64,000 bases of DNA from Eukaryota sp. GEM-RC1 (lineage: Eukaryota). The position numbers and the translations under genes were made by a program. Location of the stretch: positions 1,364,001-1,428,000 of the forward strand of contig JAUFOQ010000016.1 in NCBI GenBank assembly GCA_040285855.1. The letters run 5' to 3'. The stretch's first letter is position 1. Every line of letters begins with the position of its first letter. The notes beneath the pieces are model-generated. The model worked only from the letters and a program-made list of their open reading frames with translations, was not told where the DNA came from and did not search any database. Below, in pieces: positions 1 to 39,867 of the stretch.

Positions 1-481
1 GAGTGAGCTGTACATGGGTAAATTTATCAGAGGAGGAAGTACAGTAGGGACACGTTTTAGACGCTTTAACACTACGAGACTTTTTGCAGGGTGGCGGCGG
101 TACATCACAACAACACGTTGATACCAATCGTTTTGTGGAGGTAGTACATGTCAGAGCTTGTGGAGACTCAACAGAGTGGTGGGGAACGATGCATGTATGT
201 GATATTGCCTGCTGGAGTGGGAGAATAGAAGCACAAAACAGGCAGCGGAAGACAAATACATCAGAGGCGACGAAAGTGCGTTCTTGTTGAGAGGAAGACC
301 AACACTCAAAAAGATGATGTAGAAAAGTGATAACAGAATGGTGTGAAAAGGCACAAAAGAAACACGAGAATGAATCCAAGACAAGATGGTGAGCTGTTAG
401 TGGTACATGGGTGAGAAGGTGTTGAGCAAGGCCATTGATGTCATCAACTGTGATGGGGCAGAAAAAGCACGGGGATGTCAT
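1..481 (-). CDS. 5' part of a multi-zinc-finger protein, truncated by the window edge (candidate element transposase or regulator)
   Basis: Not in the ORF track. ATG at 481 opens 160 stop-free codons to position 1: MTSPCFFCPITVDDINGLAQHLLTH...CFFCAFSHHSVITFLHHLFEC...CLFCASILPLQQAISHTC...CPYC. Repeated CxxC-x12-HxxxH/C spacing. Confidence 0.65.
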   Translation of the reverse strand, partial: MTSPCFFCPITVDDINGLAQHLLTHVPLTAHHLVLDSFSCFFCAFSHHSVITFLHHLFECWSSSQQERTFVASDVFVFRCLFCASILPLQQAISHTCIVPHHSVESPQALTCTTSTKRLVSTCCCDVPPPPCKKSRSVKASKTCPYCTSSSDKFTHVQLT

Positions 482-1439
482 TACGGGGGTGTTGCCTGGG
501 TGAAAAGTAATCACAATTGTACATCATTCAGCTTCAAGTCATTTTGGTTCAGAACCGGTTATTACGGTTCCCAAAACTGGCGGTTCAGGTTGCTGAAAAC
601 AATGAATGAATGAATGAGCATTGATTTGTTTTAATCTATTGTCCTCCACATTTTACATGAGTGATTATAAACCATCGACATGCTACATTCACTGACATTG
701 TAGATGACAAATGTTGTGGATACTTTCCATTTCTATGTTTGTCGGTTGAAGACGAAACAGACTATATAGTTTTGGAAATAGTACTGTAGTGCACTCAAAT
801 CCAATAGTAAATCAATTGTTTTAACTGTTCTCAAACACTTAAAACAATTGACTGAAGAATGCAATTTCTTCTTAGAACACTACATTTCATTTCTAACTTG
901 ATGTAGCCCGGTTGCGAAGATATAAGTGTTTAGGTACCGAAAATAGTATCATTCCTACCACAGAGAACTGCGAAAACAATTGAAAAGTACTAAGACTAAA
1001 TCCAAACGACTTCATCCATATCCGAGAAGGGCCTACGTTTTTGGACTTTAAATTCAAAAATTGTAAAGTTTATCAACTAAACCCGAAAAATGGAAAACAA
1101 TTTACTGTGTTTCCATTCACTCATTCTAAACTTACGCTACTGTTCTTTACATTGTTCTTCAAATGCTTGAACAACTATTCACCTGCAGTACTTATCGACC
1201 CGAAATAAGAAACAGAAAAAGGTTGAAACACAAATTTGTAGTGTGTAGTTCGTTAAATTATGACATATATTCATCTTCATTAAACAAATTTAGAATATCA
1301 ATTCCGATGTAGTTCTTCAACTTTGGAGTCATTCTTGGAATAAGAACTGAACTGTATTAGCACTTGTCTGCCAAGCAGCAGTCGTTTCCCATCTGGTTGT
1401 TTCGAATTTAGTTTATGAACAGTTTTGGTTTCTGTACAT

Positions 1440-1734
1440 GACTCTTGGCTATCTTGTTGTTTTGGATTGTGTGTATTTCTGAGTCTGCTACCGCCCAGAC
1501 TGATACTGATCGATTTGTTCACACAGTGAACTATTTTAATCTGTAATATTCACAAAGGAAATGATTCCGCATCTCATCATACAATGATTTTAGAAGTCAA
1601 TTTTATTGTTATTTACCACTGTGAATTTCATTCCAAATGCATAAGGGCATAACCCTTCACATTTTCATGAGATAACCCACAGTTGACAAAGTCCTCATTC
1701 GCAAAGTCTTTTAAGACGAGCTAACTTCATAGAT
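1440..1734 (-). ncRNA. Candidate Fanzor omega-RNA scaffold (boundaries uncertain)
   Basis: Directly 3' of the Fanzor ORF. Long imperfect hairpin at 1683->1618 (ACUGUGGGUU/AAUUCACAGU, UCAU/AUGA, AAAUGU/GCAUUU, AAGGG/CCCUU) whose G-U pairs form only on the minus strand. Further hairpins GUUCAC-ugu-GUGAAC (~1517-1531) and AGUCUG...CAGACU (~1482-1501). Confidence 0.35.
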
Positions 1735-4700
1735 TCAAGATTCCTGATCTTTCTGGTTTACGTGTGAGTCCTTGGGTACATCTTTCTTAGGCTTATTTGG
1801 ACAAGTTGCTCTGTTATGCCCAGGTTGAAAACATATACCACACTTGTTAGGACCTCTGACTTTTGTTAGAGGACGCTTTGCTTTACCCTTACCCTTACTC
1901 ACAGTCTTTTTCTTTTGGAATCTGATCTGTATTCCCGCCATCCACGACAGGTGTTGTTTGAGATTTTGGTCTCTCGAGGATGGCAGGTCTACCTTGACCT
2001 TGAATGGTTCCATTTACAATATTGTAAATATTGATAGCAGAATTGAAGTCTCTATTCCAGAGGACATGACATTTAGCACATTCAACTAAGCCCCATGGTG
2101 AGACTTTGTTGTTCTTCAATCTTTCTTTCGAAAATGTCAACTGGTCAGTCCATTCATCATCAAAGTTACGCTGCACAATATTGTCTAATTGATTGTGTTC
2201 CATAATTTCCTTTTTAATTCTTTCTCTTCCTTCTGTAACTTCTTCTTCCAATGAGGATCAGTGACTTTTATCCTTTCAGGATTGGAACAGATACCTTCGT
2301 CGTTTCTGGAAACACATGCAGAGCAACATTTGCTGGTCTTAAATTCATCAACTAGGAACACTTTTAATCCAAATTTTCTTAATAATTTCCGAATTGAAGC
2401 ACCTTTTACAGTAGATGCTTTACCTCTTCTTCGACGAAAAGCAGTGTCGTTCCAGTCTCCATACCCAACAACGACTTCATCTGGGTTTCCAAACTGTAGA
2501 GCAAATCTGTGAAGCATGTTTTTCTCACTTCGTTCCTTTCTTGAATACTGTGTGAGACGATTCCTCCTAAACCACTTTTCTTCGTAAATTCCTTCTGTAG
2601 TTCTTTGATCAGTAGTGGGTGATCGTAATAAAGAACAGGTAATTTCTTTACCAAGAACAAAAGCAGAATACTGAGTCAAATCACAAGATTTACTACCTGG
2701 CGAGTTAGAGCCCCATTGATCTAAAATTTGTTGCCCATTTATGTCAATGCGTCTGCCATCTGGAATGTGAATAAATTGGGTAGAGTATTGTTGTAACCGT
2801 TCAGATTCAGATAAACGGTGGAGATTATATCGTCTTATTTTCTTCTCCAGCTTCCTCTTCTTTCTCTTAGCTCTTTTTCTTTCCGTCCTTGTTTTTTTCT
2901 TTTCCATGGAGACTTTTTAATATCTGCCTTGCGCTCCCCAGCAGTGTATCTGAATACTTTCCAATCGTCACGATTTTTTAACTTGACAGTTGATGGTTTG
3001 TCAATAGTGGGTGCGTCTTTCCAATCCTTCAATTCCTTTTTCAATTTTTTCAAGCTTCCTTTTTTCTTTGATGATTTTGGAGAAATCTTTCTTCTTCTGA
3101 GATTGGCTGATGTATCGAAACCTTCGATGTTCTTTTCCTCCTCAGATTTTAAAGAAGCACAATACATCAAATCATGCTGATTAGGATCAATAGCAACAAT
3201 TCTTTTGGATTTCAAATTTAAGTTTTGAATTTCTGTGGAACTCAAAGAATCAATGTACCTTTCAGTAGCTGTGTAGTCAACTGCTTTCACCTTCTTATGA
3301 GGATTTCCTCTCCCATCAAGCAGATCTTTCCGCATCATCATTAAATTACAGCTAACTCCATCTGTAGAAATAGAACTGTATTTGAAGTCATGAGACAATG
3401 ACTTTGGAAGACACTTTGGTTTCAAAACTGAGTGCCAAATATCTTTTCGAACGTCATCAAAGCTACCTTTCATTTCTGATGCATAAACTTCTTTAAACCA
3501 TGTAGTATCCAATCTGATATGATTAGGAATCAGTGATTTTGTTAGAGGAAAAGGATTATTGGCAGTAACACCAGGACAAGAGTCCTCAACAAGACGTTTC
3601 AAAAACACTGCATGACTTAAGAATTTCAAAGGATCTACTTTTTCAGCATAATAGATTGTTTTCTCCATTTTACCTTCAAAAAAAGTAAACAAATAATTAA
3701 AAAATAGTAAACTCAGTCTAGAATTGGGATCAGGAAACACTTCAACATCTTGAAAATTAATTTTTGAAATTTCCCCATTAATGATCAACTGTCTGACTTC
3801 ATTAAGCTTTGTACACAACTCTTGTCGTAGATTCTTATCAGTAAGCTTGTTAAGTCTATCTTTTTCAGGGTAACCAAATTAAATACTTGAAAAACATATT
3901 CATGAAAGTGATCACTCATGTTAGTCTTGTAATTCGTTATAATTTCAGTAGCCATGTAATGCAATATACGAGATAAACGATGACTACTGGGAAACACAAT
4001 CCTATCAAGTCCAACAGATCGAGCAGCTATTTCTAAACGAGGAATATAATACATCAAGAAGTGTTGAGCAAACTGATTTTGAGTTGAGCCATCATTTGTG
4101 TTAGAAATTATGTTTGTTAACGATTCTTGCACAGTCTCAATATGATTCTGATTGTTTACAAGTTTGTTGTCCCTAATCGTCATCATAGACAACACTTGTT
4201 CCATTGATTTCAACGTAAAAAAATTCTTCCAGTCTGGCAATTCAATTTTGGTAGTTTGAATTTTAGTCCAAAGGTCAGGTTCACCACTCGCATCTTCAAT
4301 ATTTTCTAATTTAACAGGAGGAGCAGTATCATCGATAGACTCTGAATGTACATCTGTTTCTTCATCAGTTGACTCATCTGTATCAGAATTCATTTTTCCC
4401 TTAACAGTTACATTTGGAACAGTAGCAGGCAGTAACTTCTGAATGTAACCTATAATACCTGAATGGTGAAAATTATGAACAAAAAATGTTTCAAAAAGAG
4501 AGTACTACGGACTCTTACTTGGTGAGCTCTCTTAACACGAGATTCAATAAATTTAACCTTCGCTTTGGATACAACATTGTCCAGTCGTTTCTTAACCACT
4601 TTCATTGGTGACTTTGAACGTAATGTTTGCTTTTTGGGATCCAATAGGTCAGCCAACAAGTATTCAATCAGAGGTAATTGTTGAATTGAGTTCATCAACA

Positions 4701-7163
4701 ATAGCGGTCTTGTCGATTCCTTGGCCCAAAGTTCATTTACTTTCTCCAAATTTTTTACAAATTTCTTTTTAATCTTATCGACCTTCACTTTGGGATTGTC
4801 TGGAACTAAAACATTAATACTGTCAATTATGCCATGCAAGTTTTGGACATCATTGACCAATTGAACTTCATCAGGATCAGAGTCATGATTAAGTTCTTCC
4901 AAGCGTTTGACAGTTTCATTTTTAGAAAAATTATTCATTTCAAGAAAAATTTGAACAACATTTTCCAAAAAACGGCCACCAGTAAAGACATAAAAATTCT
5001 TCAGTACAGCATTCAAATCAAGACTAAAAAACGGACCAAAAGTTGTTTCCTTACACCATTTGTTGAACCAAAAGGGAATGTAGGGTTTAAATTCTGGAAC
5101 AGTAAACGTTGTATTGATTTTGAGGACTTGACAACGTGATACAAGAAAGGGAAATGTATCTAAGTGAAAGTCATAACTCACAAACAATCGTGGACAATGT
5201 TGAGTAATGAAGGAAATGAAGTTTTTAAGCATACTGGATTCACTATCTGAAATATGTAAAGTACACAAATCCAAGTTTGTAGTATCAAAATTGCCATGAG
5301 AAAATAAATGCTTTTCATTAAACTCATTGTGATCAATGATCTGGATGGAAATTGATACAATCGGATCAACAGAAGAATCACGTTTAACTTCTAATTGATC
5401 TTCAGCTTCACCTTCAACAGTTTCAATGTAATCATCATCTTCTTGAACAAGTTGAACATTTCTGCCAATAATTCTTTCTTTTTGGCAAAATCACTTTGAA
5501 CATGAATTAAACAAAAAGTTGGTAGATTGTTCCAAAGTAGAGGGGATTTAAGAAAGTCTTGAATTTGTATTTCTTCTTCTATAGGCTCAGTGTGTAGATT
5601 TACTTCCATTTTTTGGATTTCTTCTTGAATTGGCGATGGATACGACATAATGGAGGCCTGTGATTTTGGTGGTAGTTCAGATGGTGGTACTTCAGATGGT
5701 GATGGAGGCAATTCAGATGGTGGTACTTCAGATGATTCCAATGTGGACATACGGCGGTGAGTCTTTCGTATTGGAGTGTCACCAGTTGAAACAAGGGAGC
5801 TGGTAGTTCTAAATTTATTTCGTTGAATTAAAGGTGAACCTCGTGGTGATGGAATATCAGAAATTTTGGGCTTACTTTTTTTAGTGCTTAAACCAGTAGA
5901 TGCTTTAGTACTAGCAAGACGTGAACCTGTGAGAGGAATTGAAGTGGTTGGATGTTCTTTACCGGCAGGAGGTTGAATGGGTAACGATGGTACAATAGGA
6001 GCTACTGTGGTTTGACGTTGTTGTAGATAAAGTGTCCTTTGTTGAGACAATACATCCCGAATTTTTTCACGAAATATGTCTGCTTGAAGTTCATTGTTCA
6101 CTTGGACCAAATAAGTTTCCAAATACATCAGAGACGGAACATACGTGAGTCTTTTAAAAAGTTCAACATATTTTTGAATATACGCAATGACATAAACTCC
6201 ACAGTCGTTAGCAGACTGTGTTTTAGTCACAGGCACATAACGGAAAACATACCCCAATGGCACAAGTACTTCGGATAATATGTCGACAGCTGATTTTACC
6301 ATAGACTTACTCATATCTTCGCTAGTTAACATTGGATCAATGAAGATCCAAGAATTTTCACAACAGTCTATAATGGCTAAACCCCAATGAGAACCAGTGA
6401 CACCTTCTCTGGAATAATTAGCATTTCTAGTCATGGTATCACTAAGGGGAACAAAGAGGTATTTGGAGTTTATGATTTGATTTTTCTCAATTTTCGTCAA
6501 CAACCATTGATCTAGCGGGGCATCTGGTGAAACAATATATTGAAGCAATGTGGTCGGATGGATAAACATGCTTTCAAAGTCTAACTCTGCTTCTTGAAAT
6601 ATCACTTTACAGTACTCCACTATCGCTTCGTCATCAACCCATTGATGAGGATAAACTGAGTTTATGGCTTCTTGAGTTACGGGTCCTGGATTGGATTCAA
6701 TATCACCATCAGCGGTCAGGTCTTTTGGGAACGGAGGATGGGAAGGGATAACACATGAATAGAAGTAGAGTACATACAACAGCAGAGATGGAAGTGTTTT
6801 CACAACATAGAAAAAGCTATCCATATATCGACTCAACGGAGATAGAATCCAAGCAGGGGATTCCGCCTCATATTGGGTCAAATACAAACAACAAGGTGGC
6901 AGCATGACATCAACGGGAGAGGAGAAAAAGCTATCCATATATCGACTCAACGGAGATAGAATCCAAGCAGGGGATTCCGCCTCATATTGGGTCAAATACA
7001 AACAACAAGGTGGCAGCATGACATCAACGGGAGAGGAGAAAAAGCTATCCATATATCGACTCAACGGAGATAGAATCCAAGCAGGGGATTCCGCCTCATA
7101 TTGGGTCAAAAGAGGAGTCTTGTACGGAACAGAGTGTCTGTTAGAATGTAAAACAACCAACAT
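1735..7163 (-). CDS. Polyprotein: repeat leader / 2A / SENP8-Ulp1 protease / PolB-exonuclease-like domain / Fanzor1 nuclease / CCHC knuckle (reconstructed across 6 frameshifts, ~1,800 aa)
   Basis: Joins ORFs 5391-7163, 4450-5274, 3785-4393, 2835-3818, 2185-2907, 1895-2251 and 1735-2013. Five junctions are repaired by one extra base in an A/T run, the last by two. Fanzor1 motifs: ILHYMATEIITNY, FPLTKSLIPNHIRLDTT, ISTDGVSC, IVAIDPN (RuvC-I D), FRYT, GYGDW, VDEFKTSKCCSAC (E), CAKC..WNRDFNSAINI (RuvC-III D), GRPAIL. Protease: WVDDEAI, GSHWGL, FIDP, QSANDCGVY. Confidence 0.85.
6681..6725 (-). other. 2A (StopGo) ribosome-skipping peptide
   Basis: KDLTADGDIESNPG|P matches D[V/I]ExNPG|P, in frame, immediately before the protease domain. 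Confidence 0.9.
6809..7110. repeat. 114-bp coding tandem repeat, ~2.6 identical copies (38-aa unit)
   Basis: GAAAAAGCTATCCATATATCGACTC recurs at 6810, 6924 and 7038. Unit LTQYEAESPAWILSPLSRYMDSFFSSPVDVMLPPCCLY. Confidence 0.95.
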
Positions 7164-7458
7164 TTGTGGAGAGAGGAAAATGAAATGTTTCAGTCATCCC
7201 TGTAGTCTAGACTACAGTACAATTCTACTATCACTTGTAGTCAGTAGAGTGTCAAAACATCAAAACAACTCTTATGTTATACCATCATCCGTTACCATTA
7301 GTGATTACTTAAGACGTCTTTAAGACTGTCAATCGTATAACCAAACTCATTGACTTAGTTCTCTTCTGAATTCATTTGCTATAAAGCCATGTATAGTCGT
7401 AGACGAGAAGAAAATGAATTAATTCCAATAAGTAATGAAGTAATGAATGTAAATTCAC
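7164..7458. promoter_or_regulatory. Divergent intergenic region with palindromes
   Basis: Lies between head-to-head ORFs. Perfect 16-bp palindrome TGTAGTCTAGACTACA at 7201-7216 and AAGACGTCTT at 7311-7320. Confidence 0.35.
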
Positions 7459-8981
7459 ATGTCTGGAACGAAATCTGTAATAAAGTCTATACCAGAATTT
7501 CCCATGTCCTACTCAATCTTCAAACTCAGAACCACTTCTAAACAAGAAAGTCGTTCCCGTACCATCAAAACATATATGAAACTTGTTGTAAAGCTTGCTG
7601 ATAAGTATGCAGTTAACTTGTCACTTGTTCTTCTTCCTTATGGAACATACAATTCTTGGAGAACTAAATCTATCCACATAACGGAAGTCTCAACCTCTGA
7701 CTTACCAGATGATCTCAAAAAAGGTACCATGGATTTTTGCCTCAACTACAAATCAGCCGTTGCCATTGTGCTAGATGTTGATCTAGAAACTGTTCATCTC
7801 TTTCCTTTTGATGGTTCTTATGAGAAGCGTGACATATCTCTTCCACTTCCTTCAACAACTTCAACTCTAAATCATCTTAAGGATCTACTCAAAGACGTTA
7901 AACGAGTTACAATTGCTCCTCCTCCTCCTCCTCCTCAGTCTCAATCTCCTAATCTTTTACATGATTGTGACATTACTCGCATTGACGATACTCCATCTCA
8001 AGTCGTTTTTCCTTCACCAAAACGTCGTATTGATAACTTCGCAATCAATCATATTCATTCTATTTTCTCTGAACCATCTGAAATAGTTCCTGTTCCGGTC
8101 ATTGATAATGCTAATTTATCTAAACCTATGAAACGCAAAAAACAACGTAACCCGTTGATTCTTTATGTAGATTTAATCAGTGATCAGTTTTACATAAATT
8201 CAAAATTAAAATCTGGATTTTGTGATATTGAAAAAATGTTGACAAAGGATGATAGAGAAGGTAAAACACAACTCTTGTTGAGTTCTGAACTTGATTTCAT
8301 TGTGATGCTTGCATTCCAAAAAATTAAATCAAGTAGGTACAAGTTCCTGCAATCTCAAGAAACTCAACAGTTGGTAGGTGATCCAATATGCTATGCCTTA
8401 CATTCTGGTAAGGCTATTGTCGATACACTAAAATCAGGAAAAGAATTCTTGCCCCATTATGTTTGGTGAAAGAACATGTTCCTGGTGATGCAGGATCTGG
8501 TCATTGGATTCTTATTGAATTGTTTCTAAATGAAGCAAATGTTTTATTATTCAATATTTATGATTCTTTGGATTATTCATTAACCACTGAATTAATCGTT
8601 AATCCTTTTAGAACTGTTTATGGATGTGGGGAAACAAATCTGTTTGCAAGATTACCAGAGTATAAGGTGGACTACTATATACCTTTTGAACAGTCAACAT
8701 CGTCTCTTATCTGTGGATGGATTGTCTGTTTGAATGTTACTTTAATTTTACAAGGATTAATGGTTGATGCACGTCAGGAACAAAATCAGACAAAATTATA
8801 CACTAACAGATCAAGAAAAAATCTATGTCTTGTTATGTATGATCTACTTCAGAGTGTACAACCTGACTTGGTGACAGAACAAAATGTAATTGATTGTTCA
8901 AGAACAAAATTTGAAAACAAATCGTTAAAGACAAAAGACGAAAATGAAGTTTTAGGGAAAAAACAGGAAAACGAAGAATGA
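7459..8981 (+). CDS. Protein with C-terminal Ulp1/C48-like cysteine protease domain (one frameshift near 8440)
   Basis: Adding one A at GGAAAAGAATT gives GKRILAPLCLVKEH...SGHWILIEL...IYDSL...EQSTSSLICGW, the H-D-Q-C catalytic pattern. Confidence 0.7.
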
Positions 8982-9450: not shown

Positions 9451-12400
9451 TCAATTCAGGTGTTGGCAATCCTGAGGGTCCAAAGAAGTTTTTTTGCAAA
9501 TTTTGCTTTTGTCTTTATCACTGATAGAATCGTAAAAGATTACGATTTTTTGATTTTGTTCATACAATTTGGCAACAAGTTTGGCATCACTTGGTAGATC
9601 AAAGATTATACAAAGATCAGCCTGAACAGAATGGTTAACCGCTAATTGAGTAGTACTAATCATTATAACAGACTTATCATCCTTCTTGAATTGACTGAGA
9701 CTGTAATCCTTGGAACGTTTACTTTGTTTCCCGGTCAGTTCAACCACGGTAAAAGGAACTGACTGATCACGTCTGAGATTTTGATATAATTTCGGTGAAT
9801 TTACATCAGTTGTAATTAGCACCTTTTGCAGAGACTTGACAGAGACTTGACTTAACAAATGCTTGACATAGCTGATATTCTCATCCACAGTTGAGACACA
9901 AATGATGAATTGCAGTTTTGGTGATGTATCAACGAGGACAAAAGCTTTGTCTTCATTCTCAGAAATCTCAACGACTGATTCAGAAATAGATTGAGACGGT
10001 TCTTGAGTCAACTGTGTATGAAAAGCACGTAGTTCAAGACATCGTTGTTCAAAAATTTGATTAATTTCTTTTGCATCACAGTGACGAACATCACGAACTT
10101 CTAAAAATGTACCAGAAATACACAGCACAGATAAAGCTGAAAGAATAAAAAGTGTGCCATCATTTTTCAGAATGATAAAAGAATCCAAATCATTACAAAA
10201 CTCAATTTTTTGTAATTGAACAGCTAAATCACCAAATGAACAGTCAATTATAAACTGTACTTGTTTCTGTGGCAGTTTCAAACCGAAACCAATACAAAAC
10301 CCTAATTCAGTTATGTACATTATTGTGTCATAACGTTGTACATAGACTGCATCAATAATTCTGTCAACGTGGTGACATGTACAAAGATCCTTTACTTTTG
10401 TATCAATCAGCTGCTTTTCATACAAATCTAGCTTTCGGATGGTAAATGTACCAACAATTAATATCAAATTGTCATAACGTCTTAATTTTTTGAACTGTTC
10501 TCCGCGTTCAATTGTTAAATCATCTAAATCTAACAATATTGAAAGAGAATCCCATTCTAGGTCTTTTTGTCAGTTTCTGTAACTGGAAATAACCGACAAT
10601 ATACAATTCGATATACAAATGAAAGAATTGGATGTACCAACCATGTCAATAACATTGGGGTCACTGCGATTTGGTGCACATGGCAATGCTTTTCGACCAG
10701 CTTTTCCAGATGGCTTCTTGTAATGTAGAAAAAATTTGGGACCTATAGAAGCTACCAGTACAGCATATCCACCCAATTGGCCATGAAGAGCAAACATTGT
10801 TAATTGATGTTCAAAGGGTTTGCAGAATTCTTCAACTCTTCCCGAGCTACGTTTAAAAAATTTGAGGACTTTACCATTGTTGTAGAAAACAAAATTTTTG
10901 CCAACAAACAACACGACAGGAGTAGGATCGAACTCCGTCACAGCCTCAACCTCCGTCACATGCTCAACGACACTGTTGTTGTCTGCCAAATCTAATGTTC
11001 CAATGTGGATTTTGAACTCTTGTTCAAATACAACATAGAACAAAGAACCTGAATTATGTACAAAATTCAGAATTTTACAACTTTGTCCCAAATATGTCGC
11101 AGAATAAGTATTGACCTTACAATTGGTATTAGTCCAAGACAATAAATCACTAACACATGGTTCTTCAGTAGCTTCAACAATCATTTGTTCAGTACCTTCA
11201 GCAATTTCAGTACCTTCAGCAATCATTTGTTCAGTACCTTCAGCAATCATTTGTTCAGTACCTTCAGCAATTTCAGTACCTTCAGCAATCATTTGTTCAG
11301 TACGAACTGTAATTTCAGAATTCAAAATAGAATTTAGATCAACAGATAGTATCCCACAGATTGGACACGAAGGATTAAAACACATCAACATGTTGCTTTC
11401 ATCTCTCAATTGAAATTTCAAAAGTTGAAAATGATTATGTCTTCTTTCGACAAAATCCACAGCAACTGATTGATCCTTAAATCTACTCAAATCAATACAA
11501 GCAATTCTTTGATAAAAAGCGGATAAATCAACTGAAGAAACAATTCCTTGTTCAGTCAAATATACCAGAATGCGTAATCTGTTGATACATCCAAAAGTTG
11601 ATTTAATAAATGATTCTTGATAAGACCAGAACACATGCCAGAGACGTTTAACTTGAAATATTCCATTAAGATCTAGCTCGTGACTTAATAAATATAATTG
11701 AAGATAATTGTTGTCAGAACAGTGATCTGGTCTACCGATCTTGACAACTGGTTTTTCAAATTCTAATTCTGATTCTGAATTAATATTGAAGTTCATTAAC
11801 CATATGATGAACAAATTAGTTGTGCACGGGATAAATGATAATAATTGGGGCAGCTTGTCTCCAACAAAAATTCCATTGTGGTAACTTGCAGTATCACTAG
11901 TAGGAGCTAGAACAGTAGGAAGAGGAAACAGTGTCTTGTTACAGTTGACTGTATAAAATTTCTCATAGTCAAGACGATTGTACTGAATTAAATCAGTACA
12001 TGGTTTTACAGCAACTTCAAATTGTAGCATAATAGTTTTTTTCTCACAACATTCAATGTGATCCCAATGATACAATTGACTATACATTTCCCAAAAAGAT
12101 TTGTCTTTAATAAATTCTGTTGCCTTATTCCATACAATCGTACGACCACTAAAGAATCTATTGTGGTCAAAGTACAATTTGATTTTGAACTTCTTAATTG
12201 AACTTACATTTCCACTACACTTGTGAATGAACAATTGATCTTGATACTCATCAGAAAATTCTGATGTAAATATTGCAGTGGAACTTTCATTGTCTTGTAA
12301 GTAGATACCAAAATTCGGAGTCTTACCCTGTTTTAACAACCCTTTAACAACAAACTGTTTACCAAACAACGTTTCAATAAATTTGTCAAAAGATTCTTTG

Positions 12401-14909: not shown

Positions 14910-15186
14910 CGTTTCATGTTCTTTTTAAAAATAGAGGGGGATGTCTCCATTTTGTGTATATGTCGAATAACTCACAGTAGTCTTGGTGATTTGGCAGATA
15001 CCATGTCATTGAGACTAAATAATTAATAGCCGATAGACAAAAAGACGTTAGACATGGAGAAGTTTGTGCAGTATAATGATGATAGGCACAAAAGACAATT
15101 GGAACAGCAACATACTTGCACTTTCAAACCTTGTTCCAAAAAAATTCTCCAATAAGGTATACCTATGTCGGATAACTTTTCTATTT

Positions 15187-17120: not shown

Positions 17121-17317
17121 GGACGTGAATGGATTTAGATAATCTTATCCAACTACATCGTTGTACATTTGCATGCAAATCAGTGATATCTCTCCCCTTT
17201 CTATCTATTGAATTAAAAGATCAAGCTGAATATTGTTAACTGGACACTGTATCTTCACTTACTGTAAGATTATGTGTGATATGTTAATAAATGAAGCACT
17301 GTATTTATTATCATTTA

Positions 17318-19193
17318 TTACAAAGAAGAATGCTGATAATATAAAACATAACCAGTCGATGAAATGTCAGTTAACGCTGTACGTTCATCTACAATTTGCT
17401 TTGATACATTATTGGTATCATGCAAGAACCAAGAACCATCTACTACCTTTGTATATGTTACAAAATGACTGTTAGTTTGAAAACCGTGACAGCAAATGGC
17501 AGAGAACAGTTTGTAAGTGTATAACGGATCATTTGTTCGAGTTACCACACTGTGGTGTCTTTGAAAGGATTTTCGTTCCCAATCACGACCTGCACCAAAA
17601 GACTTACTTCCACATAGTCTTTCGCTTTCATTTGAAATATCAAACACAGAACACTCTTCTGGTTTAGGACGATGAGATAAAGAAAAAATGTCATCACAAT
17701 GCAGTCGAGAATTGATGTCAGTAAATGGTGAAATCTCAATTATTTCTTTCTTCAGCTGGACTTCAGGTGATAGTAATTGATATACAGATATTTCTAAGGA
17801 AATATCAACTGGTTGCTGAGGACCGGTTAGTCTAATGATAAGTACTTTAGGCAGAGACGCTAGCGTTTCAGTAATTTCTGATTTTGGGTCTGAACAGTAA
17901 GGATTAGAACATTCAACATATTTTCGGACAGGTAAATGTGAATCTAATAATAACTGGAGACTGTATGGACTGAAGCGGCTGGATTCTTCGGAGGGGTTAA
18001 TTTCTAACACAAACTTAGTTTTAAATGAGGTATTCTCATTACACCACGAACACCTTGAATCCGTTCTAATACAAAAACAAAAGGCATTGATAACACTGGA
18101 ATGTTTCAATTTATGATCCATCAGGTATTGGTCTAAATCATGTTTTAACACAGTTCTATGATCCTGAAGGGATGATTTGGGACCTGGTTGGGCGGCTTTT
18201 GGATACACTATGGCTTCTCGACTACAGTCATAAAAACAAAACTCTGGTAAATTAGGAACAGTTTGTTCTGGATCAGATTGTGGATGAAAACGATTACGAA
18301 AACTTTCAAGTTCGTCAGTTGAATATGATTCCAACAGCGACTGGAATTCCTGATTGAGAGATTTTAATAGTTTGGAAAAAAAATTGAATGGATCCTGTTG
18401 TCCAGACGCAAAAGTAGGTTAAAGACTTGCGATATGGGAGTGTATTTCATTAGACTTTTTGCTAAAAAAAACAGTGTATCAGAGGAGTTTGGCTTTGGTG
18501 GATTTTTTGAGCTACTAAATGTTCGATATCAAGCATAAAGAAATGTTGAAATTTATCACCGAGAAATTCGAGAACGGAATTGACGTAACAGTTATCAGTC
18601 GTAACAGAAGTACGAATCGAAAGAGCTTGGTTGACAGATTTGGTTAGAGCAGAAAGAGATGAATGAGACACTGTTGAACGAGAGCATGGGAATGAGATTT
18701 GTCTGTTATTAATGATCGTTATGAGTTTTTGAACGATAGAAGCATCTCGGAGAGGAGTGACTTGACGAAGACTTGACGAAGGAGTTGAGCTCAGACTGAA
18801 GCTTTTCTGTTCCACGTCAGCGGACACAAGTGCAACATTAACACAGTGTTGGATATGTCCGTCATACACTACAATCATGAAAATATCAACACTGTCTTCT
18901 ACGAGGGCTGTTTGTATAGTGGGTTTACCCTTCAACTTGTCATTCAAACCAACTGACCGAGCAGTGGAAAGCGAGTGAGAATGATTAGAAGAAAGATGAC
19001 CTTCACTATCTTCTACGAGGAGTATATCAACATTGGCTGTTTGTATAGTGGGTTTACCCTTCAACTTGTCATTCAAACCAACTGACCGAGCAGTGGAAAG
19101 CGAGTGAGAATGATTAGAAGAAAGATGACCTTCAAACATTAGTTGCATGGGTTGCTCCGAAAAACGTTGGATGACGCGGAATGATGTTGACAT
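17318..19193 (-). CDS. USP (peptidase C19) deubiquitinase-like protein, disrupted at ~18340-18470
   Basis: Cys box DNCYVNSVLEFL; GQQDP in the inter-ORF gap; LPKVLIIRL; His box YKLFSAICCHG..NSHFVTY...SWFLHD; terminal GYVLYYQ. Direct duplication of ~100 bp at 18906/19035. Confidence 0.75.
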
Positions 19194-19779
19194 GGGATTG
19201 GAAAAATGAGGATGAAAATTACAGGCAGCTAGAGTCTATTGTACTGCTCTCTCTACTCTACAAGAGTCTACTGTATTGTAAGGGTTTGGAGCTTACAGTG
19301 ATTGTCATTGTTAAGAACATTACATTTCAACTGAACCCTTGATACCAAAAGGCCTATTCTTTTCGTTTGGCATCATCAGTTAAAGTTTGTATAGATGAAG
19401 GTTCACAATGATCCGCCTGATCAGTAAGAAAATCTTCGTCAGAAGAATGATCTTCAAGAGATGATAATTTGAAACGTCGTGAACGAGAAGAAGTTCGTTT
19501 AGACATGATGAGGATTATACACCAAACTACAATGTACAATGAATGAATGTTAGAAAACACATATATTTTTTTTATTTTTAAATAATGTTCACTTTCGTCA
19601 GTGTTACATTTAAACCCTAAAAAGTTTTGGTCGGAAAGCTGTATCGTTACGAAATCTAATTAAATATGCATATGTATGTATTGATTAAATGGAAAAGAAT
19701 TTATTTCTGGACAAAACAACAAACTTGATAGAATCGGTTTGTTGTTTATAGAACACCCCTACCACTTGGCTATTTTTGT

Positions 19780-20340
19780 CAGTATCAATGACTGATTCAG
19801 TAATAGATTGAGACGGTTCTTGAGTCAACTGGGTATGTAAAGCATTGAGTTCAAGATACTTCGTGAACGAGAAGTTGTAAATAAATCGTGGACATTAAGT
19901 CAAGTTTGTTTTGGACCATGATGATGTTTTTATATTTGACGGTGAAATCAGTGGAACCATTTATGTTCTAGAGTTGATTCCTGGTGTCATAACGTGGACA
20001 CCACAATCGGTGGTGACATTGAACTGAATCCACGTGGTGAAATCTAGCTTGTATGATAAAAATGAATCAACAATCCTTAGATTTTAAACAAACACAATAC
20101 ATCATATCATATTGATTAGGATCAATCGCAACAATTCTCTTAGATTCATACCTTTGTTTAAATACATATCAGAACACTTTGACCGAATCACCAATTTTTT
20201 TAAACAACATTTCCACACAATTGGCCATGAAGAGGAAACATTGTTTAATATACCTTCATACAAAACTATGCAATAATAATTAGTCTGTATTGTCGAAAAC
20301 AATTTTAGACCAGTAGTTTAATCTAGTTCCATTGAATTGA
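19780..20340 (-). pseudogene. Decayed paralogous fragments of the DEAH gene's 3' region
   Basis: 19788-19858 closely matches 9970-10040 (GACTGATTCAG.AATAGATTGAGACGGTTCTTGAGTCAACTG). ~20218-20246 matches ~10775-10802 (CAATTGGCCATGAAGAG.AAACATTGTT). Confidence 0.6.
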
Positions 20341-21404
20341 TTTTTTAGTGATCCTTCGTATGTTCGAATGATGAGTGTCTTGGTTGACACTATAAGCAGG
20401 ACAGTGATTGATCTGGATATCTCCCCCAACTTAATTGATATTGAAAGTCACATTTTCTGTTTTTCACCCAAAGAAGCGGGGGTGGCAGGATTTGAAGAGG
20501 TGATGTATATGACGTACATAAAGACCATTTACATCTGTTGATCTACTCTACTTCTGAATTGTACAGAGGAACGAAGATATACCACCAAGCTATTGCTCAA
20601 GATGTTCCCATTGTTTCTGTAAACAAAGAATAGCCAGCTATAAAGAACACATTACAGTAAATACATCACAGTAGATCTGCTGATCCTTTCTCCAATCTTG
20701 CTTCTTCTACTGGTCATTCTGTTTTCCAGAAACACACTGGAGTTTCTTCGAATAGTAATTTCAGTGGTGCTTGTGTCACAAGCAATTCAGTGGAAGAAGA
20801 GCAGAGAGAAATGAAACGGATGGAACGAAGAAAGTTATACAGTATGGCCAATACAAGTCACAAGACATTGTCTTAAACTTCTCAGAGGTCAATCTTCAAG
20901 AGTAGAACACGGCCATGGTCATAGTAGGTAATTTGTGTGAAAGGAATCACACGCTTATAACTTAGGTAGTAAGTAGCGAGTGTAACGACGGATGAACCAT
21001 AGATTGCCAACCGAACACCTTCATTGCCATTTGTCCAAGCGGGAGACAACTGGGTAAAAATGTTGGATGACAACCTGGGGAACGGCGTCATACCTCACTA
21101 CTTCAGCTTTTAGGTAAGCACTTACCATAGTGAAAAATTACTTTTCATATCGCGCAGTCTATAGTTAGAAAGATGGAGGATCATACGCATGTCAAGAGAG
21201 AAGAAAAGTGAAATTGCAGTATTCATTTTTGGAGTCTTGTCTTGTTTGTCTACAGATAGCAGACATCTTTTCTGTCTTCGGATATCTCCTACACTTCATA
21301 TACAACATTTTTGTACTTACTTACTTGACATCATTCATTAATTAATACATCAACAATGTTATTTTCAATGCTCTTGTGTATCACAACATTGACAATACAT
21401 TGAA

Positions 21405-22657
21405 CTAGAACGTATATGTTGATTTCGTGTTAACAAGGAAGAGACTTGAAACAAAAGAAGAACGGGATGCTTTATTGATATCTAAACAAAGAAAACTACA
21501 ATAATGATCTATAAAAACAAATTTAAATCGCATATGGTGTATGAGGCTAGCAGTATCACGAGTAGTATCACCAGCAATTCGAATAGCTCTTTCAATTACT
21601 GGGGTGGTGGTTTCACGAAGGGCGGAAGCAACTGCACTAAAGATGAGTTCAAGTTCCTTCTCGTCAAGTGAATGCTTAGAGTTTGCTAAAAGAGTAATCA
21701 CTGCCTCATGACCAGTCTTGACAACGCTGTCAACGTCAACAATCTTCTTAGGTTGAGGTTCAGTTATCTAGAATTAGATCAGTGGATTCATGTATGAAAG
21801 AAAAGTGAACTTCACTTCACATCTTCGAGTCCTATACTAGACCATGCACACTTATCTCATTCAATAAACAACATCTTCTTTATTTTGTTCTACTTGCCAG
21901 TTGTTTCTGCAAAACAGGTCCTACATTTAACTTCTTTATCTCTAACTTCTTTCTCTTATCGCTGCCTGAGATAGGCTTTTCCTTTCCACACTGATGTCCC
22001 AAAGTCTTGGAAACAAGTGATCCTAGGGAGGATTGAATTTCATCGTATTTAGTAGTAGTGGAAGGAGCGGATTCGACGGGAGAGTTACGAGAGGACTTTG
22101 TGAGAGGTTCTGGAGTTGTGGCTTCTTTGCTAACAACATTAGCTTCTTTAAGGTACTTATTCTTTTCTTAACAATATGAGTTCTTTCATGAATAACATTA
22201 GGAGCAATTGAATAAAACTCAGTAAGATCTTCGTTTTCTTCAGGATTTATACCATACACTTTCTTAAAACGTGAAGAAATGTCTGGTACTTTTGCGCCTT
22301 GGGAAGCTAAATATTGAGTTCTAGAATTAATAAAGTGAACAATATTCTCAAAAAGTCTTCCTTAGACTGTACCAAGTCTGAGAGGAATTCATCATTGTTG
22401 GTACTTATAGAAAGTCCATCGGTTGAATTGTCACGAGGTCGTGAAATTAGAATATAATCCCCATTGGGACCGAGCTGAACACTTTTACCATCCACCTTTG
22501 TCGATGTATAACTAAAGACGTTATAGACATCCTGGTGCTTGTTCATATTCTTTCTTCGGAAAGCGTTAGAGCGTCGTTTCTTGTTATAATTGACAGACAT
22601 AGACGTTGCATCATCTGAAGACTGAAATGAGAGTGAATAAAGACATACAACTGACAT
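21405..22657 (-). CDS. Hypothetical protein(s), fragmented
   Basis: Successive same-strand ORFs 22307-22657, 22023-22259 and 21405-21701 with protein-like composition; no recognised motif. Confidence 0.3.
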
Positions 22658-22699
22658 TGGATTTTTGCCGGAAAAATATTTTCCTTCACTATCAATTCA

Positions 22700-23503
22700 A
22701 TGACCAACAATATCTTACAAGATTGTTTGGCAACATTCTTTGAAACATATCTCATTCAACAAATACAAGCATGTGGGTGTATCAAATGCATGGCCATAGG
22801 AGAACTTAACTCTCTTGACAAATTGACATCACTTTTGTCTCACATACATCGTATGAGCTTTCATCCAAATCCTGAAGATGACTTAACTTCTTTATCTCCT
22901 TTACTTTCAATCTGCTCACATATACTAGCGAAATGTAAGACAATGCCGTCGATTCCATTGTGGAACGTGGTATTCAAAATTGTTTGTTGTTGTTGTAGTA
23001 GTGTAGATGTTGAGGGAATGCTAAATTGTTTTTCTGTCCTGTTATTTGTACTTGCAAATTCTTTACAAGCAATGTATAACACGTTGGTGATCACAAAGTG
23101 TGCAAGAATATTGTTTCTCAATGATATTTCCGAATTTCTTTGGAGTATTAGTGATCGGCAGTGTCTAGTTAAAGTATTGACAGTTTTGGTACTATCCTTG
23201 AATGGTGATGAATGTAGGGAATTGTTACTTACTGAAATATTCCAAGAGTTTACAGGATGTTCTGAACCATTGACAGATATAATTCTTATGTGTGAGAACA
23301 GTCAAGATGAGGAGTTTATTGAAATGTCCGTTGTTGTTAAAAGGGTGTCTTCGTTGTTCAACTTGTTTGATGTGAATGAGATTTGTGAATGTGATGCAGA
23401 TTGTGACAAGGAGTTTGTGAGTTTCATTGATTCGTTGTTTAAGTATAAAGAACAGTTTTATTTTTTAACAAATAGCAATGAGGAGATTACATTCGACATA
23501 TAG
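22700..23503 (+). CDS. Hypothetical helical, Cys-rich protein
   Basis: 267-aa ATG-initiated ORF; no recognised motif. Confidence 0.5.
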   Translation: MTNNILQDCLATFFETYLIQQIQACGCIKCMAIGELNSLDKLTSLLSHIHRMSFHPNPEDDLTSLSPLLSICSHILAKCKTMPSIPLWNVVFKIVCCCCSSVDVEGMLNCFSVLLFVLANSLQAMYNTLVITKCARILFLNDISEFLWSISDRQCLVKVLTVLVLSLNGDECRELLLTEIFQEFTGCSEPLTDIILMCENSQDEEFIEMSVVVKRVSSLFNLFDVNEICECDADCDKEFVSFIDSLFKYKEQFYFLTNSNEEITFDI

Positions 23504-23959: not shown

Positions 23960-26409
23960 ATGTCCATTATCAACACACTTACAGACGAACAGGCTCAGGT
24001 CTTCCAAGCTATTACTCATGCTAGACCTTCTAAGCGTCGAAATTTCTTCATTACTGGTGGTGCCGGATCGGGCAAGTCTTACCTACTGTACTGTCTTAAA
24101 CAGTGGTGGTCTAATGCGGGTTCCAAGCTAATGAGACCCAATGGCCATGTCTTTTTTACTGCTACTACTGGTGTTGCTTCCACTGTCTTTGGTGGTCAAA
24201 CCCTACACTCTCTCTTTGGTTATAATTTTATCCGTAATGAAAAACCAATATCTGATGTCATTCGCTCTATGCCTTCAAGTGTTAAGTCTGTTTTACGAAC
24301 TATTAGTGCTCGAAATTCAATGCTTGTTATTGATGAAATTTCAATGTTGACTGCTGAACTATTCAACAGAGCCTCGGATATATTTAAAGATTTACTGAAG
24401 TCTCAGTTACCATTTGGTGGACTTCAAGTTGTAATTTTTGGAGATTTTTTGCAACTTGCACCAATTGTAAAGTCTGACTCAAACACACGTACTGTTCTTC
24501 AACTTTCAGACTTTACGTTTTCATCACAGTCTTGGAAGGACTTGAATTTAAATTTTATTGAATTATCTGGAAGTATCCGACAACAAGGTGATGTCAATTT
24601 TTATAATTTTTTGAATGAAATACGTCTCGGACTTTTTGATGACTATATGAAACATATTTTATTGAAACATAAGTCATTAGCCAAAAATATTGAAAGTCCA
24701 ACCAAATTATTTGCTAGAAACAAGGATGTCGCCGACGAAAATTTAAAGCAATTTGAATTATTATGTGAACAAGGGAATGAAAATGTTGAATTTCATTCCC
24801 TCGATAAGTTCAATGAACCCTTAATTAAATCAGAAATTGTAAAGAGTTGGGCATTTGGTAAGCCTAATGAGGAACAAATGGAAAAGGCTGTTGATTTAAA
24901 TTTAAAAAAATTATCAAGTAGGCTAAACGATTTTGCCGAACAAAAATTTCACTGTGTTGTCGGAGGTTTGGTAATGTTTACCCAAAACAAACCAGATCTG
25001 GGCCTAGTAAATGGGTCAAAAGGCAAAATTATTGATTTTTCGGAAAGTTCACATTTCATTAATGTAAGATTCGGGAGGGACGAAGAACCAATCAAAATTA
25101 TTCCGACTAAATTTGAAATTGAGGTGTTGAATGAGAAGAAAAAGCCTGTAATTATAGCATCCCGATTGCAATATCCTCTTCGTCCTTGTTGGGCAATAAC
25201 AGTCCATAGATCTCAGGGACTAACAATTGAAGGAATTGAAGTATCATTAAATTTTTGGGAATATGCCCAATTGTACGTTACATTGAGTCGAGTGAAGAAC
25301 TGGAACTCAATTCAAATTTTAGATATTTCTTCAAGATTTCCCATACCAAGAATTGATCTTTATCAGTGGTATTATTCCACTTTTCACCCCTGTCGACCGG
25401 TTACAAAACCTCTTTATCCTTTGCCAATAGAAGATGAAAGAATTGTTAGAAATTGGCCTTCTGTGTTGAAAACTTTTGATGAATTTTCGTCCAATATTAA
25501 TTCTATTGTTGGTGAAAGTATGGAAACTGTTGATGTTCTTGATCCAGTCAATGAAGAAATTGAGGAAGATTTGGTGGAAGATGTTCCAAAAATTGAAAAT
25601 TTGAATACCACTTCTAATTCAGTTTTAGAATTATTCGATAATGAAGTTGTTGTCTCTGGAAGTGATAGTGGAGATGATGAAACTGATGATGATGACGATG
25701 CGTCGTCTAGTATGAATGATTTTGTTGTGAATGATGATGAAGATGAGTGTCTCAATAATCAAAGTGTAAGTGCCATCAATTCTGATTTAATTTTTAACAA
25801 ACATGTGCCAAAACTGAAAAAACAACAATTACTACTTTGCCTAAATTGAGACCAAATCTATTGTCTCGAAATACTCTCAAACCAAATTCGAATTTACCTA
25901 GTTTGAAATTATCAAAAAAAGTTACAGATCATGTGGACACTGAATCTGTCAACAGATTACCAAATTCTCTTGGTATTCAGACAGACCTTGAAAACAACTT
26001 GAACAATACTCGTACTATTTCCATGCAGACAGAAACAAAGGTTCTTACAATTGTCCACGATATTGTACCACTGCATTGGAACCAAAGTGGTACAACATCA
26101 GACTGTCAATCACATATGAGTTTGAAACTTCAGTTGTTAAAAGATTTAAATTTATTGATGGCGGAAATTTTGAGTTTTCATTTGAATGATAGGGACAAGT
26201 ACTTTAATGTGTTGTCGTTGACCAATACTTTTGTTATGTCGATATTAGATTTAAATGATGAAGTGATGTGTGATGAACATTGTTTGGGAATATTGGATGA
26301 ATTTCGTGAAGTGATGTGTGAGTATTGTTGTGGGATTGGATATAAGGAGTCGTTTTCGTTGGCTGTGATGTTTGCGAGGGTGATGGGGGGATATAGTAGT
26401 GTTAGTTAA
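23960..26409 (+). CDS. PIF1: PIF1-family SF1B DNA helicase with acidic tract and C-terminal extension (frameshift near 25820)
   Basis: LTDEQ, FITGGAGSGKS, TATTGVA, GGQTLHS, IDEISM, PFGGLQVVIFGDFLQLAPI, RQQGD, LVNGSKG, QYPL..WAITVHRSQGLT, QLYVTLSR. An A6 run joins ORF 25837-26409. Confidence 0.9.
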
Positions 26410-26532
26410 GTTTGATAAACTGAGGTTGTATATTTTATTGGTTGTGTTTAACGACATTATATATAGAAGAAAAAATTATGAGCAACAACAATTCAATACA
26501 CATAGGACACGTTGATTGAGATTGATTCTCAC

Positions 26533-26902
26533 CAAATGTTGTAGTTACAAATGTTGTAGTTACAAATGTTGTATCACCAAATGTTGTCATTACAAATGTT
26601 GTCATTACAAATGTTGTCATTACAAATGTTGTAGTTACAAATGTTGTATCACCAAATGTTGTCATTACAAATGTTGTCATTACAAATGTTGTAGTTACAA
26701 ATGTTGTAGTTACAAATGTTGTAGTTACAAATGTTGTATCACCAAATGTTGTAGTTACAAATGTTGTATCACCAAATGTTGTCATTACAAATGTTGTCAT
26801 TACAAATGTTGTCATTACAAATGTTGTAGTTACAAATGTTGTAGTTACAAATGTTGTATCACCAAATGTTGTATCACCAAATGTTGTCATTACAAATGTT
26901 GT
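26533..26902. repeat. 15-bp minisatellite, 25 cores; probable subterminal repeat of the element
   Basis: Invariant CAAATGTTGT plus one of three 5-mers (AGTTA, CATTA, ATCAC) at exact 15-bp period. Confidence 0.95.
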
Positions 26903-26949
26903 ACATGTAGTTATAACTTGGTGTCTTTGTGTCTTCTGATGAATGAAGC

Positions 26950-29676: not shown

Positions 29677-29689
29677 TATTTGTTCTAAG

Positions 29690-38080: not shown

Positions 38081-38081
38081 C

Positions 38082-39848: not shown

Positions 39849-39867
39849 GTCATTTATGGCCTTATGA

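What the first reader, a model, noticed from the sequence alone, without database searches (positions are those of the whole stretch)
1..26905. Giant (>27 kb) Fanzor-bearing element with virus-like expression and a ubiquitin-like deconjugase toolkit
Seen: zinc-finger ORF, Fanzor polyprotein, second Ulp1, giant DEAH helicase, second 2A polyprotein, USP and PIF1 in one block, ending at a 15-bp array, with host genes only beyond it. No capsid, packaging ATPase, PolB polymerase domain, Helitron Rep or DDE transposase was recognised within the window. Established: Ulp1 and PIF1 occur as cargo of large DNA transposons, and Fanzor1 rides several transposon superfamilies and giant viruses. Inference: this combination does not match a Polinton, Helitron or ordinary MULE gene set and may be an undescribed family of giant transposon or endogenised virus.
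Basis: partly seen in the sequence, partly recalled or inferred. Interest (0 to 1): 0.85.

Follow-up and report, generated by a model that had tools for sequence, protein, structure and literature searches.

The report
Modular Fanzor island in a metamonad
A 26-kb block in a Skoliomonas-type anaerobic protist packs several multi-copy, likely selfish gene cassettes, among them a likely 1,750-residue Fanzor1 RNA-guided nuclease joined to an Ulp1-type protease, an exonuclease-like domain and a predicted ribosome-skipping leader, and these cassettes likely spread and swap parts separately rather than as one fixed giant transposon.

Summary
Most of the gene list is real, and the block is mobile-type DNA, but one fixed element over 27 kb is not shown. 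Confirmed: Fanzor1 with its D-E-D triad, SENP8-like Ulp1, PolB-type exonuclease domain, DEAH helicase, USP, PIF1, two canonical 2A motifs and a 25-unit 15-bp array. Paralogues indicate two long 2A-led genes: F (leader-2A-Ulp1-exo-Fanzor1, about 1,750 aa) and H (leader-2A-X-DEAH-unknown, at least 2,180 aa). The "giant helicase" and the "second 2A polyprotein" are therefore one gene. The "second Ulp1" is inconclusive. The zinc-finger ORF looks host-like, so the block probably ends near 0.8 kb.

In named Eukaryota sp. GEM-RC1 records the parts are dispersed families: 14 other F, 19 other H, 18 other PIF1 and 1 other USP. Only 1 of 14 F copies has an H nearby and none has a PIF1 within 30 gene tags, although looser clustering exists. 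Leaders and Ulp1 domains are shuffled around the 2A. New: a 0.85-kb mosaic of 40-115-nt pieces of multi-copy genes. No transposase, integrase, Rep, polymerase or capsid was found. Best reading: a composite island of recombining selfish cassettes carrying a new Fanzor1 architecture. How it moves is unknown.

The parts
2..523 (-). Cys/His-rich ORF running off the window; probably a host gene flanking the block
   Evidence: Host-like codon use; no zinc-finger Pfam hit; no longer homologue among 107 candidates
797..866 (-). Strong imperfect hairpin about 0.9 kb downstream of the Fanzor gene; candidate right-end or guide-RNA stem (inferred)
   Evidence: Inverted pair I15; folding z -4.8 and -5.0, the two lowest of 43 windows in 500-2300; no Rfam match
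1741..2013 (-). CCHC zinc-knuckle ORF overlapping the Fanzor C-terminus; possibly its tail
   Evidence: Pfam zf-CCHC_2 E 0.0014, below cut-off; frame junction
1898..4504 (-). Fanzor1 part of gene F: TDG motif, RuvC-I D (IDPN), RuvC-II E (VDEFKTS), Zn-finger Cys, RuvC-III D (NRDFN); in four frames
   Evidence: Translations; collinear tblastn with P0001, P0002, P0006; profile hits to solved Fanzor1, E 1e-45 to 3e-26
4453..5490 (-). PolB-type 3'-5' exonuclease-like domain of gene F; activity uncertain
   Evidence: Pfam DNA_pol_B_exo1 above cut-off; PHROG 262 E 3e-5; 14 other loci at 92.7-98.8% aa
5394..7163 (-). N-terminal part of gene F: 114-bp tandem-repeat leader, 2A motif (DIESNPGP, about 6704), SENP8/NEDP1-like Ulp1 with His-Asp-Gln-Cys, disordered linker
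7453..8978 (+). Two overlapping ORFs, probably one gene; the C-terminal part has an HW..YDS..CG pattern (possible divergent CE-clan protease, unconfirmed)
   Evidence: negative or weak
9454..10569 (-). Helicase_C-containing ORF, in frame after a stop codon behind gene H; joining not shown
   Evidence: Pfam Helicase_C E 1.9e-6; junction
10573..17120 (-). Gene H: tandem-repeat leader, 2A (DIELNPGP, about 16511), Cys-rich domain X with CCHC knuckle, DEAH helicase core, about 650-aa unknown region
   Evidence: P0133, P0139, P0132 and P0011 bridge the pieces; 4 H1 and 15 H2 paralogues; best outside hits TDRD9/HrpA-type, about 31%
17321..19193 (-). USP deubiquitinase gene with Cys and His boxes; broken here by a frameshift and an in-frame stop
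   Evidence: Pfam UCH E 5e-11; whole 624-aa paralogue P0148 at 99%
19690..20540 (.). Mosaic of short pieces of multi-copy genes in both orientations: H C-terminal ORF (19785-19856, 90%), 2A-like (about 20000-20045, +), Fanzor RuvC-I (20074-20146, 88%), H middle (20204-20245, 90%), LRR-like family (20389-20502, +)
21408..22600 (-). Unidentified gene in several frames with host-like codon use, inside the block
   Evidence: All four pieces lean host-like, each weakly; no family hit above cut-off
22700..23500 (+). Cys-rich, probably helical-repeat ORF with element-like codon use
23960..26406 (+). PIF1 helicase plus downstream ORF, joined in paralogues P0157 and P0163
   Evidence: Pfam PIF1 E 1.6e-32; 19-member 90% cluster; P0157 matches to 26449
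26533..26903 (.). 15-bp array with invariant CAAATGTTGT core and three 5-bp variants; candidate end of the PIF1 cassette (inferred)
   Evidence: no inverted copy in the window

Best explanation
The block is likely a composite mobile island: several lineage-specific, multi-copy cassettes (F = leader-2A-Ulp1-exonuclease-Fanzor1; H = leader-2A-X-DEAH helicase; PIF1 with its downstream ORF and array; USP) that likely spread mostly on their own and tend to gather in the same regions. Shown: domain content, dispersal of each family, unequal copy numbers, and shuffled leader/Ulp1 combinations. Inferred steps: (1) The 2A likely releases a variable repeat-derived leader so that the working protein always starts at the same proline, which makes leaders freely exchangeable. 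(2) Fanzor1, with a guide RNA likely ending near the 797-866 hairpin, would cut copies or empty sites, and repair from related copies would keep the cassette and recombine its parts. (3) The same repair or template switching likely wrote the gene-fragment mosaic. (4) The Ulp1 and USP proteases and the DEAH helicase likely act as anti-silencing or chromatin cargo. (5) Movement to new sites would need a transposase in trans, or homology-driven copying; no such enzyme is in the window.
For: Dispersed recent families: F exonuclease region at 14 other loci on 8 contigs, 92.7-98.8% aa; PIF1 cluster of 19; H 4+15; sister Fanzor family of 4. Tight linkage is rare: F~H within 15 tags 1 of 14 (expected 0.59), F~PIF1 within 30 tags 0 of 14 (expected 0.80), H1~F|PIF1 1 of 4. 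Module swapping: the window's leader type sits in front of five different post-2A sequence types, two other leaders in front of two each, and one Ulp1 type follows three leaders. Some copies carry two Ulp1 domains before the same exonuclease (P0209, P0217). Codon use is element-like in F, H and PIF1, but host-like at 2-484 and 21.4-22.6 kb. All three long-range self-matches between different genes of the block other than 2A-2A have one partner inside 19785-20245. Fanzor1 is known cargo of many DNA transposons, with its RNA at the right end (passages of PMC3627910 and PMC10711439).
Against: Looser clustering is above chance: H within 30 tags of an Ulp1/F or PIF1 model in 8 of 19, expected 2.85, p 0.0015 (best of 15 tests); H2 5 of 15, p 0.025. 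In 10 of 12 mixed groups the tag order is F/Ulp1, H, PIF1 as in the window (1 reversed, 1 mixed), and spacings of 24-26 tags recur four times. Both fit larger conserved elements. Locus tags are an indirect ruler: only the clusters I looked up are counted, 4 of 18 other PIF1 members were not listed, repeats were masked before gene prediction (PMC11316075 passage), and the 14,000-tag total is my assumption. No cassette end, target-site duplication or empty site was seen. The codon test is weak per gene: the H leader and the USP N-terminus score host-like, and an LRR-like gene outside the block scores element-like.
Confidence: 0.5

Rival explanations
1. One family of giant, length-variable DNA elements. 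The window is a compact, probably complete 26-kb member, bounded by the hairpin and the 15-bp array. Others are 60-100 kb or truncated, and an unrecognised or external enzyme mobilises them.
For: Clustering within 30 tags, p 0.0015; same order in 10 of 12 mixed groups; recurring 24-26-tag spacings. Total family sizes are similar (F 15-19, H 20, PIF1 19). Codon use and low GC are shared (0.357 against 0.38-0.39). Fanzor lies at one end and the array at the other.
Against: 10 of 14 F copies have no H or PIF1 model within 45 tags. USP has only one other copy. No matching termini. A host-like gene lies inside. A strong one-way order is not expected of randomly oriented insertions either.
Confidence: 0.3
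2. Host multigene families (defence or silencing functions, with a domesticated Fanzor) expanded by segmental duplication, not mobile elements.
For: The closest outside relatives are cellular: SENP8/NEDP1-like proteases (family name recalled) and TDRD9/HrpA-type helicases. No transposase. A 2A-Ulp1 family also exists in the sister species TZLM3-RCL (4 members).
Against: Young copies are scattered over 7-8 contigs without shared neighbours. Fanzor1 is typical transposon or virus cargo. Codon use differs from host genes.
Confidence: 0.12
3. Fragments of an endogenised large DNA virus.
For: The nearest non-Skoliomonas Fanzor relatives found are in giant-virus-type contigs at 27-33% (64 loci). PIF1, ubiquitin-like proteases and a PolB exonuclease are common in such viruses (recalled).
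Against: No capsid, ATPase or polymerase domain. H and PIF1 have no relative in the viral collection (0 of 127 and 0 of 99 candidates). The viral Fanzors are stand-alone, at most 695 aa in 64 of 64, and none of the other block ORFs hits those loci.
Confidence: 0.08

Closest known systems
Fanzor1-carrying DNA transposons and giant-virus Fanzor1 (Bao and Jurka 2013, PMC3627910; PMC10711439; PMC10530073)
   Same: RuvC D-E-D triad, TDG motif, C-terminal zinc finger; multi-copy dispersal; position at one end of the block with a hairpin downstream.
   Different: Known Fanzors are about 600 aa (PMC10530073 passage; at most 695 aa in the 64 viral loci). Here about 900 extra N-terminal residues hold a repeat leader, 2A, Ulp1 and an exonuclease-like domain. 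No associated transposase, TIR or TSD was found.
2A-bearing non-LTR retrotransposons (L1Tc, Ingi, CR1/Crack; PMC3708506)
   Same: One 2A near the N-terminus of a long ORF.
   Different: No RT or APE domain. The 2A precedes a protease or an unknown domain, occurs in two unrelated genes, and marks where leaders are exchanged.
Helitron/Helentron and Pack-MULE gene-capturing elements (PMC6431247)
   Same: PIF1-family helicase, cysteine-protease cargo, captured gene fragments, terminal hairpin and tandem array; Helitrons can carry Fanzor1.
   Different: No Rep domain or HUH motifs. PIF1 is stand-alone, with DEISM rather than the Helitron DEAPM motif (motif recalled). No TIRs. The captured pieces come from the element's own and other multi-copy families.
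Polinton/Maverick and giant endogenous viral elements
   Same: Size range, protease cargo, PolB-related domain.
   Different: Only the exonuclease part of PolB. No integrase, capsid, packaging ATPase or TIRs.

Membership tests
Fanzor1 | Split RuvC with D-E-D triad, zinc finger and TDG motif; similarity to Fanzor1 proteins | tested here: met
   Motifs in the translations. tblastn with P0002, E 1e-15. Profile A1, which includes two outside Fanzor1s, hits solved Fanzor1 at E 1e-45 to 3e-26. TDG as a Fanzor1 feature from a PMC10711439 passage.
Fanzor1 | Guide RNA at the element's right end | tested here: inconclusive
   Hairpin at 797-866 with z about -5; no Rfam match; no second DNA copy to define the end.
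Fanzor1 | RNA-guided DNA cleavage | not testable with these tools
   Needs an assay.
2A/StopGo element | D(V/I)ExNPGP motif | tested here: met
   DIESNPGP and DIELNPGP; conserved in 34 fetched non-viral proteins.
2A/StopGo element | Ribosome skipping, which needs a suitable upstream tract | not testable with these tools
   PMC3708506 passages state that the motif alone is not enough.
Helitron/Helentron | HUH Rep domain fused to a PIF1 helicase | tested here: not met
   No Rep family or HUH/Y2 motif in 1-27000; PIF1 paralogues start at or after 23960.
Polinton/Maverick | Protein-primed PolB, retroviral-type integrase, capsid, ATPase, TIRs | tested here: not met
   Only an exonuclease domain; no such families; no end-to-end inverted repeat.
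MULE/CACTA and other DDE transposons | DDE transposase | tested here: not met
   No hit; a non-autonomous derivative is not excluded.
MULE/CACTA and other DDE transposons | TIRs and target-site duplication | tested here: inconclusive
   The longest inverted match between the two flanks is 10 nt; true ends unknown.
Giant endogenous viral element | Nucleocytoviricota hallmark genes | tested here: not met
   window only.
Non-LTR retrotransposon with 2A | Reverse transcriptase and endonuclease | tested here: not met
   No RT or APE hit or YxDD-type motif in 1-27000.
Ulp1/C48 protease (ORF 8412-8978) | C48 fold with His-Asp-Cys triad | tested here: inconclusive
   Pattern visible; profiles negative or weak; no structure model obtained.

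The most novel reading that the evidence does not exclude
A transposase-free class of large eukaryotic selfish DNA that spreads by homing. Its Fanzor1-exonuclease fusion cuts and resects a target, its PIF1 drives long-tract copying from an existing copy, template switches shuffle 2A-bounded modules, and captured pieces of rival or sibling elements are banked in an internal mosaic that serves as a source of guides or silencing RNAs, an acquired memory inside a eukaryotic mobile element.
Probability: 0.15. Interest if true: 0.88.

Novelty: new variant of a known kind. Interest (0 to 1): 0.62.

Why it matters
It adds a Fanzor1 about three times the usual length, with protease and exonuclease-like modules and a 2A leader, from a metamonad; my searches found no paper pairing Fanzor with metamonads. 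It shows 2A motifs used outside RNA viruses and retrotransposons, apparently as a module boundary in DNA-based selfish genes. It gives a tractable case for the open question of what Fanzor1 does for eukaryotic elements: 15 or more near-identical copies in one cultured protist allow ends, guides and targets to be read directly. If the mosaic yields small RNAs or guides, it would be a CRISPR- or piRNA-like memory carried by the element itself.

Tried and rejected
No whole genome was available, so ends, TSDs and empty sites could not be read. No sequencing run was listed; this is no evidence on expression. Five look-ups of earlier scan findings returned nothing. Left terminus by array motif: one direct 11-mer at 707 ties with chance matches elsewhere, so I rejected it. 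The metagenome scan gave only generic DEAH helicases, 15 loci at 25-34%. Viral scans for H and PIF1 found nothing; PIF1 was a single-protein query, so it sees close relatives only. The AlphaFold model of domain X was unusable (pLDDT 39) and was not searched further; no second model was obtained. ESM Atlas gave nothing usable for X and only helical-repeat look-alikes for ORF 22700. PDB sequence searches for ORFs 7453, 10573, 8412 and X were negative. Rfam was negative. A GTPase-G4-like piece (19854-19967, Pfam E 0.063) and an Ulp1-Cys-like reading of 19964-20083 (E 0.18) are too weak to count. Introns as the cause of the breaks: only two intron-like patterns in the block, neither at a bridged junction. 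Programmed frameshifting is not excluded: six exonuclease models, the window's included, end at the same break. Assembly error is more likely, since a long host-like gene is also split five times.
Full report
Host and data. All close relatives of the block's proteins are NCBI records named Eukaryota sp. GEM-RC1, with a more distant 2A-Ulp1 family in TZLM3-RCL. The host is therefore a Skoliomonas-type free-living metamonad. The named assemblies were built from Nanopore reads with Illumina correction and were repeat-masked before gene prediction (PMC11316075, passages).

What is in the sequence. Pfam gives above-cut-off hits for PolB exonuclease (4453-5490), Ulp1/C48 (5394-7193), Helicase_C (9454-10569 and 12513-14924), UCH (17321-18418) and PIF1 (23834-25846). 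It gives weak TnpB zinc-finger hits for two Fanzor pieces. The Fanzor has the TDG motif and the RuvC D, E and D residues. It is collinear with outside Fanzor1s, and a profile containing it hits three solved Fanzor1 proteins. The nearest outside relatives found are 64 viral-collection loci at 27-33%. All 64 are stand-alone ORFs of at most 695 aa, and none of the other block ORFs matches them. Two canonical 2A motifs follow tandem-repeat leaders. The array has 24 full units of three variants plus one core. No transposase, integrase, Rep, RT, polymerase or capsid family was found.

Gene models. P0217 and P0173 run through the Ulp1-exonuclease junction, and P0001 and P0006 run through the next two without missing residues. 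The last two junctions rest on collinearity with a distant Fanzor1. Gene F is thus likely one ORF of about 1,755 aa. P0133 and P0139 join leader, 2A, domain X and the DEAH core, and P0011 links the core to the 10573-12570 region, with a deletion. Gene H is likely at least 2,180 aa; the last Helicase_C ORF follows an in-frame stop and is not bridged. Of 14 junction windows in the block, 13 contain a homopolymer run, which is common in AT-rich DNA and only suggestive. A long host-like gene is also split five times, 2 of 5 at such runs. Sequencing error is the likely cause, but predicted paralogue models can also bridge breaks with false introns. The USP has a frameshift and a stop against its 99% paralogue. 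The second Ulp1 is inconclusive.

Boundaries. The Cys/His ORF at the left edge has host-like codons (LLR -0.051 +/- 0.027 per codon) and no longer homologue (0 of 107 candidates; a weak test). The block likely starts near the strong hairpin at 797-866 (z about -5) and ends at the array, about 26 kb. The longest inverted match between the flanks is 10 nt, and the single direct array motif at 707 is not above chance. One PIF1 paralogue matches to 26449, close to the array. A gene at 21.4-22.6 kb leans host-like.

Dispersal and linkage. Other loci found: F exonuclease region 14 (92.7-98.8% aa, 8 contigs), sister Fanzor family 4, H1 4 (94-99%), H2 15 (about 62%), PIF1 18 (14 listed with names), USP 1. 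That each F locus still has a RuvC is inferred. In the window, F, H and PIF1 lie within an estimated 10-15 gene models. Elsewhere this is rare: F~H within 15 tags 1 of 14 (expected 0.59), F~PIF1 within 30 tags 0 of 14 (0.80), F~either within 45 tags 4 of 14 (2.53). Against this, H lies within 30 tags of some Ulp1/F or PIF1 model in 8 of 19 (expected 2.85, p 0.0015, best of 15 tests), and 10 of 12 mixed groups keep the order F/Ulp1, H, PIF1. Transposon-rich islands explain the clustering; the one-way order stays unexplained. The tests assume 14,000 tags and incomplete sampling.

Modularity. Among 34 fetched 2A-bearing proteins plus the window's H leader (three virus-like polyproteins left out), leaders and post-2A domains are mixed. 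The window's leader precedes five post-2A types, and the window's Ulp1 type also follows another leader. Some copies have two Ulp1 domains before a 96-98% identical exonuclease region. This points to repeated recombination at or near the 2A.

Mosaic. Apart from the 2A-2A match, the only long-range self-matches in the block are three pieces of 42-73 nt at 88-90% identity, all within 19785-20245. They come from the Fanzor RuvC-I and two parts of H. tblastx adds a 38-codon piece of the LRR-like family seen at 42.7 kb (E 1e-5), and a degenerate 2A lies on the opposite strand. Changes are mixed (synonymous/non-synonymous 4/5, 2/4, 0/4), so the sources may be diverged relatives or old copies. There are no repeats between the pieces. 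Fragment capture is known from Pack-MULEs and Helitrons (PMC6431247, passages).

Mechanism. I favour a composite island of separately spreading cassettes (0.5), then one family of large variable elements (0.3), host families (0.12) and a viral remnant (0.08). Shown: domains, dispersal, module exchange, mosaic. Inferred: 2A release of leaders (the motif alone is not sufficient; PMC3708506, passages); RNA-guided cutting with a right-end RNA (PMC10711439 and PMC10530073, passages); repair-driven recombination and capture; anti-silencing roles of the proteases and helicase (by analogy; PMC6338049, passages). Pif1's role in break-induced replication is from an abstract start in a listing (10.1101/554550). 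The mobilising enzyme is unknown.

Literature. Eight searches listed no paper whose title or abstract start describes a Fanzor fused to Ulp1 or a PolB exonuclease, 2A-led DNA-element genes, or such elements in Skoliomonas. Fanzor with metamonad gave 0 papers. Term look-ups in PMC3627910, PMC10711439, PMC10530073, PMC12338488 and PMC8788227 (passages only) showed no such fusion. Supplementary Fanzor tables were not read and could list these proteins, and most subscription papers are not covered.

Verdict. Real and unusual mobile DNA, a new variant of the Fanzor1-carrying kind. Interest 0.62.

Noticed in passing
window 35452-46184: Second mobile-like island: inverted-repeat segments at 84% or less near both ends (35452-35715 with 45950-46184; 36583-36855 with 45655-45924). 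They enclose fragments resembling isoleucyl-tRNA synthetase (40141-41089; recognised from recall), an 864-aa LRR-like ORF with element-like codon use (41384-43975), and 30- and 32-bp arrays (39871, 44669)..
   Followed up: partly
window 49007-58217: Long host-like gene split over six overlapping ORFs, showing that frameshifts also affect DNA outside the block.
   Followed up: partly
window 29697-31031 and 62542-62815: Repeated, decayed sequence resembling a non-LTR retrotransposon C-terminus (recalled; no Pfam hit); a related zinc-knuckle ORF lies at 47992-48423.
   Followed up: no
window 29531-29682: 33-bp inverted repeat at 91% around a 27-bp periodic core.
   Followed up: no
locus tags of paralogues: In 10 of 12 mixed groups, on several contigs, the tag order is Ulp1/F, H, PIF1; random orientation would give about half.
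   Followed up: partly
window 27605-29092: The flanking pyruvate kinase has a near-identical C-terminal paralogue fragment (P0008, tag 012858) 21 tags from the 99%-identical H copy (tag 012879); chance or co-duplication.
   Followed up: no
P0206: An unnamed protein carries the same 2A-Ulp1 module behind a 365-aa unrelated N-terminal region.
   Followed up: no
window 59787-59877 and 61788-61882: 91-95-bp direct repeat at 92%, 2 kb apart, around two host-like genes.
   Followed up: no
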